This document shows positions 1 through 41,885 of a stretch of 64,000 nt of DNA, piece by piece. Under the pieces are notes generated by a model. That model was given only the letters and a program-made list of their open reading frames with translations, ran no database searches and was not told the origin of the DNA. The position numbers were made by a program, and so were the translations under genes. The first letter of the stretch is position 1. Each line of letters opens with the position of its first letter. The DNA comes from Escherichia phage A51.2: the sequence record ON286973, one strand, 5' to 3'.

Positions 1-139
1 TGCCCATAGTAAGTAATAAATTTAAAACATGGTACTTAGGATCTAGTATATTCTACATAAGTTAAGTATATGTACTTAGTACCATAAGTACTAGATCTTT
101 TATTTTTTATTATTTAGTTATTTTAGTTATATTCTTTAT

Positions 140-248
140 GTGTCCGTATCACGGACAGTTAGTGTCCGTATTACGGACAGATGTGTCCGCGTGACGGACA
201 GTAGTGTCCGTATCACGGACAGTTAATAGTATCCGTTCCATGGCGAAC
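140..248. repeat. Four tandem copies of a 19-bp palindromic unit GTGTCCGTATCACGGACAG (140-158, 162-180, 183-201, 204-222; period 21-22 bp) plus a degenerate fifth half-site; putative operator/iteron array
   Basis: Read directly; each unit carries the inverted repeat GTCCGT/ACGGAC; copies are separated by only 2-3 bp. Confidence 0.8.
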
Positions 249-296: not shown

Positions 297-647
297 CTAA
301 CCAGTTGTTGACATCCGAATAACTTCTTCTGGTGGCAAAACTTTGGAAAATGTGCATCTTTTACCTCTCCCTTGTGTGGATGTTTCAACCACCCCTGCAC
401 ACTCTAAAGTTTTAACGCACGCTGCTGCTTTTGTTTTCTTTATCCCAACATCTGCTGCAATTTTCCTTGTGCTGGGTGTGAAGCGTGAATTTCCTCCAAG
501 CTTATACCAGTTGTGCAGGTAGCAGTATACGATCTTGTCATACAAGTCAAGAACAACAACCTCTCCAGTTGTGTCATTCAAAACTTTTGACATAGACAGT
601 ATTTCAAGGGGGACTTTAAGATATAGCAGCTTATCCCCATCTTTCAT
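297..647 (-). CDS. Hypothetical protein, possible winged-HTH DNA-binding protein
   Basis: 116-aa ORF; basic C-terminal half resembles an HTH; no recognisable catalytic motif. Confidence 0.4.
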   Translation of the reverse strand: MKDGDKLLYLKVPLEILSMSKVLNDTTGEVVVLDLYDKIVYCYLHNWYKLGGNSRFTPSTRKIAADVGIKKTKAAACVKTLECAGVVETSTQGRGKRCTFSKVLPPEEVIRMSTTG

Positions 648-694
648 ATCTCCTGATTCTCCTTGTGTGGCAATTTTCTTTAAAATAGCAGGGA

Positions 695-1249
695 TTACTC
701 CCCGCTGTCAATAGCAAAACTCATTGCAATACGGTATGCCTCTTCTAATGGTAAGAGTCTCCCCCACACATCCCAACCGACATCAAGCTGCCTGCCAAAC
801 AACTGTTGTGTGGTTCCGTGAGCATGACCGAACAGTTGGACTGATCCGTGAGGCTTTCTGTTCCACTTTGCAAATTGGTAATGGCTCATACAGATCAAAT
901 TCTTGTTGTGGCGAAGCTCGTAATAATCTACAACCTCATGACCGAACTCTTTCATAATTCTGACAGTCGTCCTTGTGTCATGGTTGCCACGAACAAGAAT
1001 AATATGTCCGTTCAACATATTTAGAATATCTGGAAGTAAGTTGTTGATATTCTTATCATTAGTGCACGCAATATCTCCCAAGTGGAACACAGTGTCTGCA
1101 GGTGACACAACAGAGTTCCACTCGGCGATGATTCCCGCATTCATACTGTCAAGATTGTGATCATACTGAGATCTGTGTTTTTGACATGAATCGAACTCCA
1201 TGACCCGCTGGTGGAGAAAGTGTGTGTCGCTTGTTACAAAGTATTTCAT
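695..1249 (-). CDS. Calcineurin-like metallophosphoesterase (Ser/Thr phosphatase / polynucleotide 3'-phosphatase-like)
   Basis: Motifs MKYFVTSDTHF (D-x-H), HLGDI (GDxxD-like), VRGNHD (GNH[DE]); start refined to ATG at 1249, 8 nt after the upstream gene's stop. Confidence 0.8.
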   Translation of the reverse strand: MKYFVTSDTHFLHQRVMEFDSCQKHRSQYDHNLDSMNAGIIAEWNSVVSPADTVFHLGDIACTNDKNINNLLPDILNMLNGHIILVRGNHDTRTTVRIMKEFGHEVVDYYELRHNKNLICMSHYQFAKWNRKPHGSVQLFGHAHGTTQQLFGRQLDVGWDVWGRLLPLEEAYRIAMSFAIDSGE

Positions 1250-3055: not shown

Positions 3056-3817
3056 ATGCGACGACTGATTATTATCTCCGGTGCTGGTTTGAGCGCTGAA
3101 TCTGGTATTCCCACTTTCCGATCTGGTAGCACTGCAATGTGGGAGAATTTCAGCATCGATGAGGTGTGCAACATCCACACCTTTGCCAAGAACTACTACA
3201 AGGTGCATGACTTTTACAATGCACGTCGTGTAGCTCTAGGCGGTGTTGAGCCTAACCTTGCACATCTTCGGATCGCTGAGTGGTATTCCCGCTGGTCTGG
3301 TCGTGTGATCAACCTTACCACCAATGTAGATGATTTGCTGGAGCGTGCGGGTGTAAAACATGAAGATATTTTACATGTTCACGGGTATTTGCCAGAAATA
3401 GTCTATGAGGACGATGAAGGAAGTGACGTCATTAAGGACATTGGATACTCTGAGGTAGATGCAGGAAAGTATACCTGGGTTAAACCTAATGTGGTGTTCT
3501 TCGGAGAAGTAGCTCCGAAGTATACAGACATGTATGACCTGTTGACTTCTCTTACAAGCAATGATATGGTTATCCTTGTAGGGTGTTCCAACACAGTTAT
3601 CAATTTTAACTGGGAGCTATTCCCTGCCTGCAATAAGGGAACCAAACTACTGATCGTTAATAAATACGACTCACAGCATCTAGAGGAGAATGGCATTTCA
3701 CGTAGTGATATTTACCAGTATGAGGATCGCGGCATCCCAGTTTGGTTTAACGGTGCGGTTGATGCCTTCTCTGATAAAACATTCATTGAGACCGTAGAAA
3801 ACTTTATGGAACTTTAA
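3056..3817 (+). CDS. Sir2-family (sirtuin-like) NAD-dependent protein
   Basis: N-terminal Rossmann motif GAGLSAESGIPTFR matches the canonical sirtuin GAG(I/V)SxxSGIPxFR; HG dipeptide at LHVHG; no Zn-ribbon cysteines. Confidence 0.8.
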   Translation: MRRLIIISGAGLSAESGIPTFRSGSTAMWENFSIDEVCNIHTFAKNYYKVHDFYNARRVALGGVEPNLAHLRIAEWYSRWSGRVINLTTNVDDLLERAGVKHEDILHVHGYLPEIVYEDDEGSDVIKDIGYSEVDAGKYTWVKPNVVFFGEVAPKYTDMYDLLTSLTSNDMVILVGCSNTVINFNWELFPACNKGTKLLIVNKYDSQHLEENGISRSDIYQYEDRGIPVWFNGAVDAFSDKTFIETVENFMEL

Positions 3818-3830
3818 AAGGAGACCTTTA

Positions 3831-4544
3831 ATGCTGAATACTAAATTAATTGACAACCTGGAAAAACTGTCCCAACCTGAAAACTACCTTTGGTCTGCCA
3901 ACTGGGTGGAAAACTGGAACCGTGTGGCAGCTAAAGTGAAAAAATCATACACACCGTTCGAATTACAGCTTAGCTTCATTGAGGAAGAGTTCAATGAAGT
4001 TTTGGAAGAGCTGGAAAAAGGGGATGGTGGAGATCACCTGCTAAAAGAGGCCTGCGATCTTCACGTTGTCACAAGTTATGCCGCTTATCTTGTTAATGAC
4101 AATCACGAAAAGTGGTCAAACCTGTTTGATAATCCACGAGGTCTTAAGTTCAAGATCGGTGAGTTCTATGATACACTGATCGCTGCGAAAAACACCTCTA
4201 AGCAAAGAGCATCCGCTTACCGCTTAGCAGAGTTGTCAACAGCTTTGCTGTTCCAGCTTCGCGGCGATGTGTGCGGGATGATGCGTAAGGTTATCAAATC
4301 GAATGACAGCAAGTTTGCACGGGTCAACCATCTACGGTATTCACACGGTGCCAGTGCAGATATGCCTGCTGAACAACTCATCGAGTTGGAGATTAAAGAT
4401 CTTGAGCGACGCTTTGATGGTCGATATGAAGGTTTTGTTGCTAAGGAAGAATTCTACAACGGTAATAAAGTTATCATATTCCTTGACAGTAAAGGTAAGA
4501 TCATGAAGCCTTCGAGCTTCAAGGATGTAACAGAGTATATTTAA
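3831..4544 (+). CDS. MazG-like nucleoside triphosphate pyrophosphohydrolase (putative)
   Basis: EEEFNEVLEELEKGD ... EACDL fits the MazG E-x-x-E ... E-x-x-D metal-binding pattern. Confidence 0.5.
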   Translation: MLNTKLIDNLEKLSQPENYLWSANWVENWNRVAAKVKKSYTPFELQLSFIEEEFNEVLEELEKGDGGDHLLKEACDLHVVTSYAAYLVNDNHEKWSNLFDNPRGLKFKIGEFYDTLIAAKNTSKQRASAYRLAELSTALLFQLRGDVCGMMRKVIKSNDSKFARVNHLRYSHGASADMPAEQLIELEIKDLERRFDGRYEGFVAKEEFYNGNKVIIFLDSKGKIMKPSSFKDVTEYI

Positions 4545-38516: not shown

Positions 38517-38849
38517 ATGGGTATACCGATCACTGTAAAAGAATTGAATGAACGTGATGCAGGTGGTCTATGGCCTGCACGAAAAATACACTGCATCCGT
38601 ATGAAAGAGAACCTTCAGCATCTTGAGCAACAGAAACGGATTGAGGTTGGTGATATTTTCGAAGTATTTTATTCTGATCGCCGTAACTGGGAAACCATTC
38701 AACCTTCCGGTTTTGTTCTTGCTAAGCTTGACACTGGAGAAGTGATTGTTCCTGGGTTGGATATTGTCTTCGAAATTATACAGGAGTGGGATCCGGACAA
38801 GATTAGATACGAAGAGCTATTCGGTGAAGGTATTATCAAACCTGTGTGA
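38517..38849 (+). CDS. Hypothetical protein
   Basis: ORF after AAGGAGA. Confidence 0.4.
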   Translation: MGIPITVKELNERDAGGLWPARKIHCIRMKENLQHLEQQKRIEVGDIFEVFYSDRRNWETIQPSGFVLAKLDTGEVIVPGLDIVFEIIQEWDPDKIRYEELFGEGIIKPV

Positions 38850-39157
38850 GGTGGATTATGTCTACAAAGGCGGCTAAATACTCCTATATGCCATCAACCT
38901 CTGCAGAGGTAGACTTTAGTTTCGATGTGTTTCCACTGTTTGAGGTGGTTCTGGCATACCCAACAATACTATCTACTCCTGAATCACTTGTGCCTGTTAA
39001 GTTGCAGAACGCTATGCATTCCATGCACTACAACAACAAATGTAGGCACAGATGGTGTCAGGACGAGGAAAAAGATTTGGATAGTTTGAGAGATTTTGAC
39101 AGTCACCTTTTGACACCTTTCAGCTACTCCAACCTTGATAAGCCCTCGTGGGTATAG
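38846..39157 (+). CDS. Hypothetical protein
   Basis: ORF. Confidence 0.4.
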   Translation: MRWIMSTKAAKYSYMPSTSAEVDFSFDVFPLFEVVLAYPTILSTPESLVPVKLQNAMHSMHYNNKCRHRWCQDEEKDLDSLRDFDSHLLTPFSYSNLDKPSWV

Positions 39158-39370
39158 CAAAATATCAAATTTAAGACACCTAGAACGCTCTGTGGCGTCC
39201 TTTTCTTTATCTGGTGCACGATTGCATACCTTGGGTAGTTAATTTCATTACAGAGCGTTTAAGAGCTCCCTACAAACAACCCCATATTTCGAGCGTAGCG
39301 AGAACGCACGTCCGTTTTGACCCAAATCACCATACGCTCGGATTTTAACCAAACCCTCGCGGCGTTTCTG

Positions 39371-39399
39371 TTGACACATTACCGATCCAGTGATAGTAT
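39371..39399 (+). promoter_or_regulatory. Sigma70-like promoter, TTGACA-17bp-TAGTAT
   Basis: Read directly. Confidence 0.45.
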
Positions 39400-39419
39400 C
39401 CACACATCGTTTGGAGAAT

Positions 39420-39521
39420 ATGGGATACACAATGAAAACATTGTCAGAGGTTTTGGTGGTGATCCTGATGATCATTACGTCCATAGTGGCTGTTGCCGGA
39501 ATACTCACGGGTGGAACATGA
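39420..39521 (+). CDS. Small membrane peptide, 33 aa (MGYTMKTLSEVLVVILMIITSIVAVAGILTGGT)
   Basis: Promoter and GGAGA RBS upstream; the long track ORFs 39317..39730 (+) and 39248..39589 (-) overlap it in other frames. Confidence 0.3.
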   Translation: MGYTMKTLSEVLVVILMIITSIVAVAGILTGGT

Positions 39522-39851
39522 TAAACACACATGCATCTGAAGAGACATCCAAAGGAGTGACTATATGTCCCTTGACTGAGCCAGTGCAAGAGGAAAACTT
39601 CGATTCTGAAGATTCTTCATCTTCGCTCCAGGTAGATCCTGAGGCTGATGACCTGACGTGGGAAGACATCGTAGATATCTGGTTCTCTATTATGCCTGAG
39701 CACGAAGAGTTCAGGGGTGGTAGACTATGAAGCACCGAGCCCACACAGGTTCCTCATGCTGAAGCATGGCCTGAAGAGGCAAACGTGCATAATTCCTGTG
39801 CATCGGAACGTATAAAACCCTGTTCACACTCTCATTTCCAGAGGAGATTTC

Positions 39852-40067
39852 ATGAAGATAGAAATATTTGGTGGAGCTGACAACACTCGTGGCCTGATTT
39901 ACCTTGAATTCGATGAATCATACCTGCCAGAGGTGTTAAATATAGACTCTGTTGCTGATGCTTTGGGAGTAAGTCCTAAAGATCTCTACTCTGGTGCTGA
40001 GATTGATGGTTGGGAGGAGACCATGAACATTGATTTCAGTGAAGTAGAGGATGAACCGCTGGACTGA
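39852..40067 (+). CDS. Small acidic protein, paralog family A (MKIEIFGG ... VEDEPLD)
   Basis: AGAGGAG RBS; family A N-terminus. Confidence 0.45.
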   Translation: MKIEIFGGADNTRGLIYLEFDESYLPEVLNIDSVADALGVSPKDLYSGAEIDGWEETMNIDFSEVEDEPLD

Positions 40068-40194
40068 CGCACAATTAGCTGCCCGGCCAAAGTGCTGGAA
40101 GCACCTATAACACATCTTTCAACTAAATTTCCCACCACCACAATCACTTACCTTCCACACATGACTGTTTGCTTGTTTAGTGAGCAGTCATGCC

Positions 40195-40222
40195 TTGACA
40201 TTCTTGCCTATCCTGATAAAAT
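40195..40222 (+). promoter_or_regulatory. Sigma70-like promoter, TTGACA-16bp-TAAAAT, inside the ORF-free region
   Basis: Read directly; preceded by inverted repeat CATGACTG ... CAGTCATG. Confidence 0.4.
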
Positions 40223-41588
40223 TAAGTTCTTCTCTTTTCTTTTACCGAGTAATTCGGGTTTTCTGTTCTCTTCGGTTTGAAGGGGTATAGAGATACACCT
40301 GAGTGAACAGGGTGAACAACCGAACCATTAGCTATGGCATTAGCATGGCGAAGCGGACGGGTGACGAAAGAGGGGCCGGAGGACACCAGTCACTGCCATA
40401 TGATATATGGGTGATAACCTGAAGAGTCTGAATAAGTGTTTAAGTACCAGTCAGAGGAAAAGGTGAATGGTAGCCGAAGGGGGGAGGGGGGTTTCTTGTA
40501 TCTTTAATTTGTATATTATGTATACACTTGTAAACCAATCTAATCTGAATCTGTTTACCACACAAAGCGGATAGAGACAAATATTGCCTATTAAACTTGA
40601 ATTATTTATAGAAAATACCACAACACCCCTTAAGTCTTTGATTTTACACACAAATCCTACAGATATTCAACCTCCATATTTAACATACTTGTAACATATT
40701 CCATACTCTACCTGCCTGATCAATTTCCCCAACTACATTCTCATATTTCCCCTGTCTGTACTACCCTGCCCCACCGGGAGTCCCGTCATATCTGGCTTTC
40801 CAGCAAATATCACACCCACAAATATCATGCCTGAAGAGGGTTTCATCCCATAATACCTGCCTTGCCTGAAGAGCGCTTCATACACCACGTAAATTTTTTA
40901 ATTGACCTCCCCTGCCCCGCCGGAGAGGTTGGCTTTTCCCACACAGACCTGGAGAGTCAGCCAGAAATATCTGAATAGGCCCAGTTCTACCACGATTTTG
41001 ACCTGACCTACAGGAGCGCTGCCAGGCGGACGAAATGGGAATACTTCTCATTCTTATAACAATTCTCAAATATCGAGGCAGTGAGGCAAATTAATAGGCC
41101 AGGCCGTTCACACAGTGGCACAACATTTGCAACCTATCTTGTGGGGTGAATGAGAATACCTATCATTGTGAGAACCATTATCATTACGGGCAATTTAACA
41201 TAATACCCATTATGCGCACCACTGGCGATCCATACAGGGATTGATAACACGAGTTACAGTTTACGCATATAACAATCATATTTCTTACTATTTGTGTGGG
41301 ATATAGTTAGCAGCCGATAGATTAGATATTGACCTGTGGACTTCCAACCGTCTAGACGTCTAAGCGCCCACACAACAAGGCTTATACATACATTACTGAA
41401 TGTAAACAGGGCCGCAAAAATGCTACCATACCAGTTTGTAAATTTTTCATGCAGCACTTGACAAAGAGGAGGAAAACTTGTCTGACACAATGTCACACAA
41501 TATGACACAATAACGGCTGTTACCATTCCATATCTCACTGTTTACGCATAGACTGTTTACGCCTGGATAGTTTACACAGATATGATAA

Positions 41589-41885
41589 GCCATGCCATTC
41601 GTTTGCATGAAAACAATTAACAAGATAACAATCGACAAGTTAATAATCTTTCGCTGGCTATGCCAGGTGACTAGGTCACCCCTTCGGGCGTTCCTATGAC
41701 ATAATATAAAAGCAGGGCAACTATTAGCAGATCTATAGTTGCCTTGCTTGTTATGTCATGATTAACTAAATACAAGGCAACTATGATCTGATTAATAGTT
41801 TGCAGACAAACTATCACGGGGGTGATGGTTACTGCTTTTATATTATGTCGCGACTCCGTCGCGCCATGCCATTCGTTTGCATAGT
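41589..41885. repeat. Composite repeat: 20-bp direct repeats GCCATGCCATTCGTTTGCAT (41589 and 41865) flanking nested inverted repeats (CATAATATAAAAGCAG/CTGCTTTTATATTATG; GGCAACTAT/ATAGTTGCC; GGTGAC-TAG-GTCACC; CGCGAC/GTCGCG)
   Basis: Read directly. Confidence 0.7.

What the first reader, a model, noticed from the sequence alone, without database searches (positions are those of the whole stretch)
140..248. Array of four evenly spaced 19-bp palindromic operator-like sites next to an HTH-like gene
GTGTCCGTATCACGGACAG and close variants occur four times at a 21-22 bp period (two helical turns), with a degenerate fifth half-site, just beyond the 3' end of the HTH-like gene 297..647 and preceded by an AT-rich stretch with three GTACTTAG-like motifs. 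Phased palindromes indicate cooperative binding of a dimeric protein (repressor, replication initiator or packaging/terminus recognition).
Basis: seen in the sequence. Interest (0 to 1): 0.6.

Follow-up and report, generated by a model that had tools for sequence, protein, structure and literature searches.

The report
Candidate replication origin of rV5-like phages
Four evenly spaced palindromic sites sit next to the most easily melted DNA of an rV5-like E. coli phage genome and beside a small gene related to a known replication-initiator DNA-binding domain, so this is most likely the phage's still-unmapped replication origin, which can now be tested directly.

Summary
Four 19-bp units (GTGTCCG-N5-CGGACAG, each holding a 17-bp dyad) start at 140, 162, 183 and 204, two helical turns apart. 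The motif occurs nowhere else in the window or in the 135.6-kb genome.

The window is an rV5-like coliphage (Vequintavirus). All 14 relatives examined keep four sites at the same spacing. Changes cluster in the 5-bp centres, not the arms. The proposed fifth half-site is not conserved.

The array abuts the most AT-rich, least stable stretch of the whole genome (window ~20-139). That stretch holds the window's only perfect match to the oriC 13-mer consensus.

Four other phage lineages pair a homologous small protein with their own 22-24-bp tandem repeats next to a local stability minimum.

Best reading (about 0.6): an iteron-type origin with a DNA-unwinding element. The unusual feature is that the binding protein lacks the C-terminal domain of known initiators. 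A transcriptional operator or roadblock remains the main rival. No binding or origin activity has been shown.

The parts
140..158 (.). Site 1 (proposed iteron 1): GTGTCCGTATCACGGACAG, with 7-bp arms around a 3-bp centre. It is the site nearest the AT-rich block.
   Evidence: Present in all 14 Vequintavirus-type sequences. Only the centre varies (TATCA or TATTG).
162..180 (.). Site 2: GTGTCCGTATTACGGACAG, a perfect 17-bp palindrome in this window. Most relatives carry ACGGGCA in the right arm.
183..201 (.). Site 3: GTGTCCGCGTGACGGACAG. It is the only site with a G+C-rich centre. The centre varies among relatives (CGTGA, CGTGG or CGTAG).
204..222 (.). Site 4: GTGTCCGTATCACGGACAG, identical to site 1. 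It lies 74 bp past the stop codon of the wHTH gene.
20..139 (.). AT-rich block, proposed DNA-unwinding element. It directly abuts site 1.
   Evidence: 15-25% GC. It is the most AT-rich and least stable stretch of the whole 135.6-kb genome at every window size tried: dG -102.2 kcal/mol per 100 bp, against a genome mean of -133.5 with sd 5.7. It is almost invariant among seven relatives.
94..106 (+). GATCTTTTATTTT, the only perfect match in the window to the E. coli oriC DUE 13-mer consensus GATCTnTTnTTTT. It includes a Dam (GATC) site.
   Evidence: The consensus is cited from PMC4451416. A second match with 2 mismatches lies at 40-52. The core AGATCTTTTA recurs in the AT-rich blocks of two other genera.
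113..130 (+). Two tandem 9-mers, TTTAGTTAT TTTAGTTAT, inside the AT-rich block.
   Evidence: read directly from the sequence
29..97 (.). Spacer-specific motif pairs inside the AT-rich block. ATGGTAC (29-35) pairs with GTACCAT (79-85). GATCTAGTA (40-48) pairs with TACTAGATC (89-97). GTACTTAG lies at 32-39 and 72-79, with an inverted GTACTTA at 85-91. They may be sites for an accessory factor; their function is unknown.
   Evidence: The 8- and 9-mers are unique to this spacer within the window.
297..647 (-). Gene for a 116-aa winged-helix protein (rV5 ORF79), the proposed origin-binding protein. It is homologous to the RepA N-terminal domain of the Vibrio PLE satellite (Pfam DUF6945) and has no C-terminal domain.
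682..711 (-). Sigma-70-like promoter (TTGACA, 18 bp, TATTTT with an upstream TG) just upstream of the wHTH gene. Transcription from it would run through the gene into the array and the AT-rich block.
   Evidence: L001 4711-4682 equals window 711-682. It is annotated as promoter P76 in rV5.
1..19 (.). Edge of a conserved G+C-rich block of about 300 bp that continues beyond the left end of the window (L001 ~3700-4015). Whether it belongs to the element is unknown.
   Evidence: There is no Rfam match and no significant RNA structure.

Best explanation
The array is the initiator-binding part of an iteron-type replication origin of this rV5-like phage.

**Proposed mechanism (all steps inferred).**
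1. The 116-aa winged-helix protein encoded 74 bp away is made early from a host-type promoter.
2. Dimers of the protein bind the four dyad sites, one recognition helix per TGTCCG arm.
3. The sites lie two helical turns apart, so the dimers sit on one face of the DNA. They oligomerise and bend or wrap the DNA.
4. Together with supercoiling and transcription from the gene's promoter, this opens the adjoining AT-rich block (window ~20-139).
5. The protein has no recruitment domain. The phage's own gp4-like primase-helicase and/or SF1B helicase would therefore load on the opened DNA without a dedicated adaptor.

**Shown here by computation.**
- The anatomy of the array.
- Its conservation in relatives.
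- The genome-wide stability minimum next to it.
- The protein homology.
- Recurrence of the same layout in other phage lineages.

**Not shown.** Binding, DNA opening, helicase loading and origin activity are all inferred.
For: **Array.** Four phased dyad sites occur here and nowhere else in the window or the genome.

**Conservation pattern.**
- All 14 Vequintavirus-type sequences keep four sites at identical spacing.
- These sequences span protein identities of 87-100%.
- 2 of 56 arm positions vary, against 5 of 20 centre positions (Fisher p = 0.012).
- This fits a dimer that reads the arms.

**Adjacent unwinding element.**
- The abutting AT-rich block is the least stable DNA of the entire genome, about 5.5 sd above the mean.
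- It holds the window's only perfect oriC-type 13-mer.

**Protein homology.**
- The closest solved relative is PLE RepA-NTD (4RO3): phmmer E 3e-6, family profile E 4.9e-13 against 2e-4 for the next hit.
- The AF2 model has pLDDT 81.8.
- The top seven Foldseek hits are all RepA-type initiator N-terminal domains, including an iteron-DNA complex.
- 4RO3 is Pfam DUF6945.
- PHROG 12838, 'replication initiation protein', matches at 5e-80.

**What those relatives do.**
- PLE RepA binds semi-palindromic tandem iterons and is needed for replication (PMC7145576).
- The pSK41 Rep NTD (120 aa) binds four Rep boxes and oligomerises (PMC5703833).
- Lambda ori has four 19-bp imperfect inverted-repeat iterons bound by O dimers beside an AT-rich region. 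Two iterons plus the AT-rich region suffice for unwinding (PMC7466680).

**Recurrence in other lineages.** Seunavirus, a Klebsiella phage and two metagenomic phages each pair a homologous small protein with their own 22-24-bp tandem repeats. In each locus the repeats abut the least stable stretch.

**Against a promoter or terminator role.** There is no sigma-70 promoter-like or terminator-like site in the spacer.

**Origin still unmapped.** The origin of rV5 was sought by skew analysis alone and not located (PMC3606486).
Against: **No experimental evidence.** Nothing here shows binding or origin activity.

**Protein.**
- It is only the DNA-binding domain. In RepA_N plasmids the C-terminal domain is essential and contacts primase. 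PLE RepA also has a C-terminal domain.
- Its scores lie just under the Pfam cut-offs: DUF6945 27.4 vs 28, HTH_36 24.5 vs 25. Pfam RepA_N is not hit.

**Skew.** The cumulative GC-skew minimum is 1.5 kb away, at the divergent promoters. Skew in this genome tracks transcription direction, so it neither supports nor locates the origin.

**Host-factor sites.** The spacer has no DnaA, IHF or Fis consensus sites.

**Other lineages.**
- There the repeats lie in divergent promoter spacers, which are AT-rich anyway.
- In Seunavirus and the Klebsiella phage they sit just upstream of the small gene, so autoregulation would explain them equally well.

**Origin-binding protein may be unnecessary.** Large virulent phages can start replication from transcripts or recombination intermediates without one.
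Confidence: 0.6

Rival explanations
1. The array is a transcriptional operator or roadblock. The 116-aa protein would be a repressor that binds the four sites cooperatively. Its targets could be leftward read-through from its own operon into the downstream genes (the 192-aa gene, small genes and the tRNA cluster), or an unrecognised phage-specific promoter in the AT-rich block.
For: - Most GenBank records call it a 'putative transcriptional regulator'.
- In Seunavirus and the Klebsiella phage, the cognate repeats lie between the small gene's ribosome-binding site and the divergent promoters. That position is typical of autoregulation.
- Transcription from the promoter at 711-682 must cross the array.
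- Rep proteins often have both roles, so this rival can coexist with the origin reading.
Against: - No sigma-70-like promoter lies in the 660-bp spacer.
- In Vequintavirus the array is downstream of the gene, not at its promoter.
- No further copy of the site exists at any other promoter in the genome.
- A pure operator does not explain why the sites abut the genome-wide stability minimum with an oriC-type 13-mer.
- It also does not explain why the closest relatives by sequence and structure are initiators rather than regulators.
Confidence: 0.2
2. The array acts at the RNA or single-strand level. The four palindromes would form tandem hairpins in the 3' untranslated region of the wHTH mRNA, acting as a stabiliser, a processing site or a terminator. 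Alternatively they would form cruciforms in the DNA.
For: The strand folds far better than shuffled sequence (dG -28.7 kcal/mol, z = -7.1). The array lies in the transcribed 3' flank of the gene.
Against: - The strong fold follows trivially from the palindromes.
- No U-run follows the hairpins, and no terminator-like site is found.
- No compensatory arm changes are seen.
- The only arm change (A to G in sites 2 and 4) is uncompensated. It gives a C-A mismatch on the transcribed strand in most relatives.
- Exact 21-22-bp phasing and conserved non-symmetric flanking G residues are not needed for hairpins.
Confidence: 0.05
3. The array is a packaging (pac) or terminus recognition site bound by a small terminase or accessory protein.
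For: - Repeated sites occur in some pac regions.
- The large terminase gene is only about 4.4 kb away on the circular map.
- Several assemblies break at the array.
Against: - PhageTerm analyses report circular permutation and headful packaging, with no fixed ends.
- Contigs breaking there is what assemblers do at tandem repeats.
- The tRNA cluster and the spanin genes lie between the array and the large terminase gene.
- The adjacent protein is a RepA-NTD homologue, not a terminase small subunit.
Confidence: 0.03

Closest known systems
RepA and ori of Vibrio cholerae PLE phage satellites (PDB 4RO3; Pfam DUF6945)
   Same: - PLE RepA binds semi-palindromic tandem repeats in a non-coding region, and those repeats are required for replication.
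- Both occur in Gram-negative hosts and in a phage context.
   Different: - PLE RepA has an additional C-terminal domain, which the protein here lacks.
- PLE is a satellite that borrows the ICP1 replisome. This is a 136-kb virulent phage with its own polymerase and helicases.
- The iteron sequences are unrelated.
- The protein here scores just below the DUF6945 cut-off (27.4 vs 28).
RepA_N theta-plasmid initiators of Firmicutes (pSK41, pTZ2162; PDB 4PQL, 4PT7, 5KBJ)
   Same: - The N-terminal domain has the same fold. These are Foldseek ranks 3-7, and they include the iteron-DNA complex.
- pSK41 has four Rep boxes.
- The iterons are dyad-containing direct repeats with an A/T-rich centre.
- The N-terminal domain dimerises and tetramerises and bends the DNA.
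   Different: - Pfam RepA_N is not matched.
- In those plasmids the ori lies inside the rep gene, between the parts coding for the N- and C-terminal domains.
- Their C-terminal domain is essential and binds DnaG.
- The downstream 192-aa gene here shows no similarity to the C-terminal extensions of longer members of this protein family, and has no PDB match.
Bacteriophage lambda ori and O protein
   Same: - Lambda ori has four iterons, each an imperfect 19-bp inverted repeat bound by initiator dimers.
- The iterons are flanked by an AT-rich region that unwinds.
- Transcription through the region contributes to activation (PMC7466680).
- The layout is almost identical to the one here.
   Different: - There is no Pfam Phage_rep_O match. 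Only weak PHROG links to 'O-like' families exist, and only through the Seunavirus homologue.
- Lambda ori lies inside gene O.
- O has a C-terminal domain that recruits P-DnaB.
E. coli oriC DNA-unwinding element (13-mers)
   Same: One perfect and one 2-mismatch copy of GATCTnTTnTTTT, each containing GATC, lie in the AT-rich block beside the initiator sites.
   Different: The spacer has no DnaA boxes and no IHF or Fis sites. The block is longer, and its other motifs are specific to this spacer.
Operator arrays of phage and plasmid repressors
   Same: Both use dyad-symmetric sites read by a dimeric helix-turn-helix protein encoded next door.
   Different: - The sites do not overlap a recognisable promoter.
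- There are four equally phased sites.
- No other copies exist in the genome.
- The sites abut the genome's stability minimum.

Membership tests
Iteron-type replication origin (lambda-like or plasmid theta origins) | Several tandem, helically phased binding repeats for an initiator | tested here: met
   Four units at 22, 21 and 21 bp, unique in the genome. They are conserved in 14 relatives.
Iteron-type replication origin (lambda-like or plasmid theta origins) | An AT-rich DNA-unwinding element directly next to the repeats | tested here: met
   The abutting block is the least stable DNA of the 135.6-kb genome. It carries an oriC-type 13-mer.
Iteron-type replication origin (lambda-like or plasmid theta origins) | A cognate initiator gene in cis | tested here: inconclusive
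   The adjacent gene encodes a homologue of an initiator DNA-binding domain. It lacks any further domain.
Iteron-type replication origin (lambda-like or plasmid theta origins) | The initiator binds the repeats and opens the AT-rich region | not testable with these tools
   This needs EMSA or footprinting, plus KMnO4 or P1 nuclease probing.
Iteron-type replication origin (lambda-like or plasmid theta origins) | Replication starts here (copy-number peak, 2D gels, ori-dependent plasmid replication) | not testable with these tools
   No infection time-course reads are available. GC skew is uninformative because it follows transcription.
RepA_N / DUF6945 initiator proteins | An N-terminal winged-helix domain with the RepA_N/DnaD-NTD fold | tested here: met
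   [not shown]
RepA_N / DUF6945 initiator proteins | A score above the curated Pfam threshold | tested here: not met
   DUF6945 scores 27.4 against a cut-off of 28. RepA_N is not listed at E <= 1. Homology is nevertheless supported by the family profile against 4RO3 (E 4.9e-13), and 23 of 39 family members hit DUF6945.
RepA_N / DUF6945 initiator proteins | A C-terminal domain that is essential for replication and engages the replication machinery | tested here: not met
   The protein has 116 aa, the size of the N-terminal domain alone. The downstream 192-aa gene shows no similarity to the C-terminal extensions of longer members of this protein family.
RepA_N / DUF6945 initiator proteins | Iterons that are direct repeats containing inverted sub-repeats around an A/T-rich centre | tested here: met
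   Three of the four centres are A/T-rich (TATCA, TATTA, TATCA). Site 3 has CGTGA.
Lambda O family (Pfam Phage_rep_O) | Sequence membership in Phage_rep_O | tested here: not met
   There is no hit at E <= 1.
Repressor-operator system | Sites overlap or flank a promoter that they control | tested here: inconclusive
   No sigma-70-like promoter lies in the spacer. Phage-specific promoter types are not covered by the scan.
pac site / genome terminus | Located at a genome end, or in or next to the terminase genes | tested here: not met
   The genomes are reported as circularly permuted with headful packaging. The large terminase gene is about 4.4 kb away, beyond the tRNA and spanin genes.
Intrinsic terminator / REP-like hairpins | A G+C-rich hairpin followed by a U-run, or compensatory changes that keep the stems | tested here: not met
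   No terminator-like site is found. The only arm change is uncompensated.

The most novel reading that the evidence does not exclude
A stand-alone RepA-type N-terminal domain, with no recruitment domain at all, is the true origin-binding protein of a large virulent phage. By oligomerising on four phased dyad iterons it opens the adjacent unwinding element. The phage's self-loading gp4-like primase-helicase, or its SF1B helicase, then enters without an adaptor. Related N-terminal-domain-only proteins with their own repeats would mark the origins of other Vequintavirinae genera. That would define a minimal class of initiator.
Probability: 0.3. Interest if true: 0.6.

Novelty: new variant of a known kind. 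Interest (0 to 1): 0.45.

Why it matters
**An unmapped origin.**
- rV5-like phages are widely isolated and are used in phage-therapy and biocontrol work.
- Their origin was sought in 2013 by skew analysis and not found.
- In GenBank records the array is left unannotated, labelled a bare 'repeat_region', or overlain by spurious small ORFs.

**What a defined candidate allows.**
- A specific origin and origin-binding protein make the start of replication in this group directly testable.
- They would also help in engineering these phages, for example as ori-containing shuttle fragments or replication-defective mutants.

**Wider significance.**
- This would extend RepA_N/DUF6945-type initiator domains, described as rare in Gram-negative systems, to virulent coliphages.
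- It raises the question of how an initiator without a recruitment domain could hand over to a replisome.

Tried and rejected
1. **Single-sequence AF2.** The model had pLDDT 39 and was unusable. The 39-sequence alignment was needed.
2. **Rfam on the spacer and the whole window.** No family reached threshold. The rli43 and mir-154 hits are far below their gathering scores.
3. **The G+C-rich block as a structured RNA.** The fold z-score was -1.5 on the transcribed strand and -0.25 on the other. None of the 93 predicted pairs showed a compensatory change. No evidence was found.
4. **The downstream 192-aa gene as a split-off C-terminal domain.** BLASTP against the longer members of this protein family (P0011, P0014) gave E > 3. 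There is no PDB or Pfam match. The idea is unsupported.
5. **DnaA boxes and IHF or Fis sites.** None lie in the spacer.
6. **GC and AT skew to place the origin.** The extrema coincide with switches of transcription direction, as the rV5 authors found. Skew is uninformative here.
7. **Direct homologues outside the genus.**
   - tblastn finds the protein only in Vequintavirus.
   - The exhaustive HMMER search gave 8 hits.
   - IMG/VR holds no relative, and the profile was too diverse for the locus search.
   - The IMG/VR motif scan returned mostly single chance matches.
8. **The fifth half-site.** It is not conserved.
9. **Plasmid homologues.** The only hit is a phage genome deposited as a plasmid. 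There is none in RefSeq complete E. coli genomes.

Full report
**1. What the window is.**
- The first 3 kb are 97-99.9% identical to more than 100 rV5-like coliphages (genus Vequintavirus). The best match is phage JohannBauhin, MZ501083.
- The window starts inside a non-coding spacer of about 660 bp.
- The spacer lies between two minus-strand genes. One is the 116-aa helix-turn-helix gene at window 297-647 (rV5 ORF79, 'putative transcriptional regulator'). The other is a 192-aa gene of unknown function to the left of the window.
- In plus-strand order the spacer contains four elements.
  - A conserved block of about 300 bp with 50-60% GC. Only its last ~19 bases are in the window.
  - An AT-rich block with 15-25% GC (window ~20-139).
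  - The four palindromes (140-222).
  - A variable 74-bp stretch up to the stop codon.

**2.
- The units begin at 140, 162, 183 and 204, with spacing of 22, 21 and 21 bp.
- Each unit is GTGTCCG-N5-CGGACAG. This is a 17-bp dyad with half-site centres about 11 bp apart, inside a 19-bp direct repeat.
- With up to 3 mismatches, the motif is found essentially only here, with 0.1 matches expected.
- The perfect-arm palindrome occurs nowhere else in the 135.6-kb genome. The 7-mer half-site GTGTCCG occurs elsewhere only as five isolated singletons, none part of a palindrome.
- It is by far the strongest tandem repeat in the window.

**3. Conservation.**
- I compared eight GenBank or window sequences and six metagenomic contigs. 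Their versions of the protein are 87-100% identical to ours.
- Four sites at identical spacing are present wherever the contig reaches that far.
- The left arm never varies. The right arm varies at a single position (A or G) in sites 2 and 4.
- Five of 20 centre positions vary, against 2 of 56 arm positions (Fisher p = 0.012).
- That pattern is what a dimeric protein reading the arms would produce. It is not what hairpin selection would produce, since the arm change is uncompensated.

**4. The neighbouring DNA.**
- I rebuilt the complete near-identical genome and scanned it.
- The AT-rich block abutting site 1 is the most AT-rich stretch of the genome at 60, 100 and 120 bp.
- It is also the least stable stretch by nearest-neighbour energy at 50 and 100 bp. 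The value is -102.2 kcal/mol per 100 bp, against a mean of -133.5 with sd 5.7.
- It contains GATCTTTTATTTT at 94-106. This is the only perfect match in 64 kb to the oriC unwinding-element consensus GATCTnTTnTTTT (consensus from PMC4451416).
- It also contains a second match with 2 mismatches, two tandem TTTAGTTAT 9-mers, and spacer-specific inverted motifs.
- No DnaA, IHF or Fis consensus sites are present.
- No sigma-70-like promoter or intrinsic terminator is found in the spacer.
- A good promoter (TTGACA, 18 bp, TG-TATTTT) lies just upstream of the 116-aa gene. Early transcription should therefore run through the array.

**5. The protein.**
- Pfam scores are just under threshold: DUF6945 27.4 vs 28 and HTH_36 24.5 vs 25.
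- PHROGs places it in family 12838, 'replication initiation protein'.
- tblastn finds it only in Vequintavirus. An exhaustive HMMER search of 1.8 billion representatives gave only eight hits.
- Its best PDB match is 4RO3, at E 3e-6. With a profile of eight family members the match improves to E 4.9e-13, and the next hit is a MarR protein at 2e-4.
- 4RO3 is the N-terminal domain of RepA of the Vibrio cholerae PLE satellite.
- Barth et al. showed that this RepA drives replication from the PLE origin during ICP1 infection. They showed that it belongs structurally to the RepA_N initiators, and that it binds a semi-palindromic tandem repeat required for replication (PMC7145576).
- The 4RO3 sequence is Pfam DUF6945, at 81 bits.
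- An AF2 model built on a 39-sequence family alignment is confident (pLDDT 81.8, pTM 0.77).
- Its seven best Foldseek matches are all RepA-type initiator N-terminal domains: 4RO3, pSK41 RepA 4PQL, and pTZ2162 RepA 4PT7 with its iteron complex 5KBJ.
- In pSK41 the 120-residue N-terminal domain binds four Rep boxes, oligomerises and bends the DNA. A C-terminal domain that binds DnaG is essential (PMC5703833).
- The phage protein corresponds to the N-terminal domain only.

**6. The same layout recurs elsewhere.** Each lineage has its own protein sequence and its own repeat sequence.
- Seunavirus SPLA5a has a 105-aa homologue (BLASTP E 4e-6; PHROG 8102 'replication initiation protein'). Next to it are two copies of AGCCTAnnCTCAAATTGATA, 23 bp apart.
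- A Klebsiella phage has a 119-aa homologue next to two copies of TCTAATTATTCCCGAnnAGGAATA, 24 bp apart.
- Two metagenomic phages have 182-195-aa homologues next to two ...AGGTACA repeats, 22 bp apart.
- In every one of these loci the least stable 60- and 100-bp windows abut the repeats.
- Three genera share the AGATCTTTTA core in the AT-rich block.
- Caveat: in these lineages the module sits in a divergent promoter spacer, which would be AT-rich in any case, and autoregulation is a plausible alternative there.
- For lambda, two iterons plus the AT-rich region suffice for unwinding (PMC7466680).

**7. Interpretation.**
- The anatomy matches an iteron-type origin closely.
  - There are four dyad iterons bound by dimers on one face of the helix.
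  - An adjoining unwinding element is present.
  - A cognate DNA-binding protein is encoded in cis and expressed early.
  - Transcription passes through the region.
- Formally it is almost a copy of lambda ori, which has four 19-bp imperfect inverted repeats plus an AT-rich region. The protein, however, is related to RepA_N/PLE RepA rather than to lambda O.
- I put this reading at about 0.6.
- The main weakness is the absence of any recruitment domain.
  - The downstream 192-aa gene shows no similarity to the C-terminal extensions of longer family members.
  - The phage does encode a gp4-like primase-helicase, a DNA polymerase and a further DNA helicase, which the rV5 paper describes as PIF1/RecD-like. 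These could load on opened DNA without an adaptor. This is inference.
- The longer family members carry C-terminal extensions. Some end in an acidic (D/E)xPF tip. From my own knowledge this resembles the C-terminal tip of SSB. It hints at a replication context for the family.

**8. Rivals.**
- A transcriptional operator or roadblock (0.2) is compatible with the fold and with the position of the repeats in other genera. It does not explain the juxtaposition with the genome-wide stability minimum, the lack of a promoter, or the initiator-specific homology. It could coexist with origin function.
- RNA hairpins (0.05) and a pac site (0.03) are disfavoured.
- GC skew cannot decide. Its local minimum at record position 130,421 is the divergent promoter region 1.5 kb away, and skew follows transcription.

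**9. Novelty.**
- The rV5 genome paper looked for the origin by skew analysis only and did not find it. It does not mention the repeats.
- Searches for Vequintavirinae with 'iteron', and for rV5 or PVP-SE1 with 'origin of replication', found no description of this element.
- Some GenBank records carry an automatic 'replication initiation protein' label or a bare 'repeat_region'. Others annotate small ORFs across the palindromes.
- The kind of element is well known. The variant features are an initiator reduced to its N-terminal domain, an origin placed downstream of the gene rather than inside it, and the setting in a virulent coliphage.

Noticed in passing
L001 ~3700-4015 (immediately left of the window; window 1-19 is its edge): A G+C-rich block of about 300 bp lies between the AT-rich block and the 192-aa gene and is about 95% conserved. 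It includes an invariant stem-loop (GGCCC...GGGCC). Annotators disagree on it: rV5 has ORF78, BASEL has two small CDS, and others have nothing. There is no Rfam match, the RNA fold z-score is only -1.5, and no covariation is seen. By my reading of alignment A2, substitutions show no third-codon-position bias. Its function is unknown, and it could be part of the origin region.
   Followed up: partly
window ~38,600-41,130 (JohannBauhin 91,000-93,521); weak repeats at window 41,485-41,648: A stretch of about 2.5 kb without annotated CDS lies at the convergent junction of the two long transcription units. It holds the second and third most AT-rich blocks of the genome and the global maximum of cumulative GC skew (record 93,062). 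A cluster of three weak 10-15-bp tandem repeats lies just beside it. It could be a terminus-like or regulatory region.
   Followed up: partly
L143 (CP057073.1, E. coli RHB39-C03 'plasmid' pRHB39-C03_2, 137,565 bp, circular): A complete Vequintavirus genome is deposited as a closed circular, non-mobilizable plasmid of a cultured cattle E. coli isolate, with no replicon type. This suggests a carrier state or episomal persistence. No comparable record exists in RefSeq complete E. coli genomes.
   Followed up: partly
L137, L141, L142 (contig ends 113-168 bp past the gene); MG065672 (record break at the same place): Short-read assemblies repeatedly break at the four-repeat array. This could be mistaken for a physical genome end.
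   Followed up: partly
L002 4147-4248 (241Ecol014PP_00082); JohannBauhin 131,877-131,978 (bas53_0215): Small 'hypothetical protein' CDS of about 33 aa are annotated directly across the palindrome array in some records. They are probably spurious gene calls.
   Followed up: no
phage collection hits, e.g. MG065635, MG065652-MG065690: Eighteen records named 'Campylobacter phage' (host C. jejuni) match the first 3 kb of the window alongside the E. coli Vequintavirus genomes. The two listed, C12 and C14, are 97.7% identical to it. The naming or host assignment looks doubtful.
   Followed up: no
proteins P0009, P0011, P0014, P0019, P0021: Longer members of the protein family (194-217 aa) end in an acidic tip, such as ...DEAPF, ...DPDAPF, ...GEPF or ...EEPF. 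This resembles the C-terminal tip of bacterial SSB, which recruits replication proteins. Another subgroup ends in ...PPWE(A/V/I).
   Followed up: partly
window 93-102; L009 ~3477-3490; L010 ~3549-3562: The motif AGATCTTTTA, which includes a Dam site, is shared by the AT-rich blocks of Vequintavirus, Seunavirus and a Klebsiella phage, although their repeat sequences differ completely.
   Followed up: partly
L011 683-2549 (JohannBauhin bas53_0003): The terminase large subunit is annotated as a CDS joined from two pieces. This suggests an intron or another intervening element in that gene.
   Followed up: no
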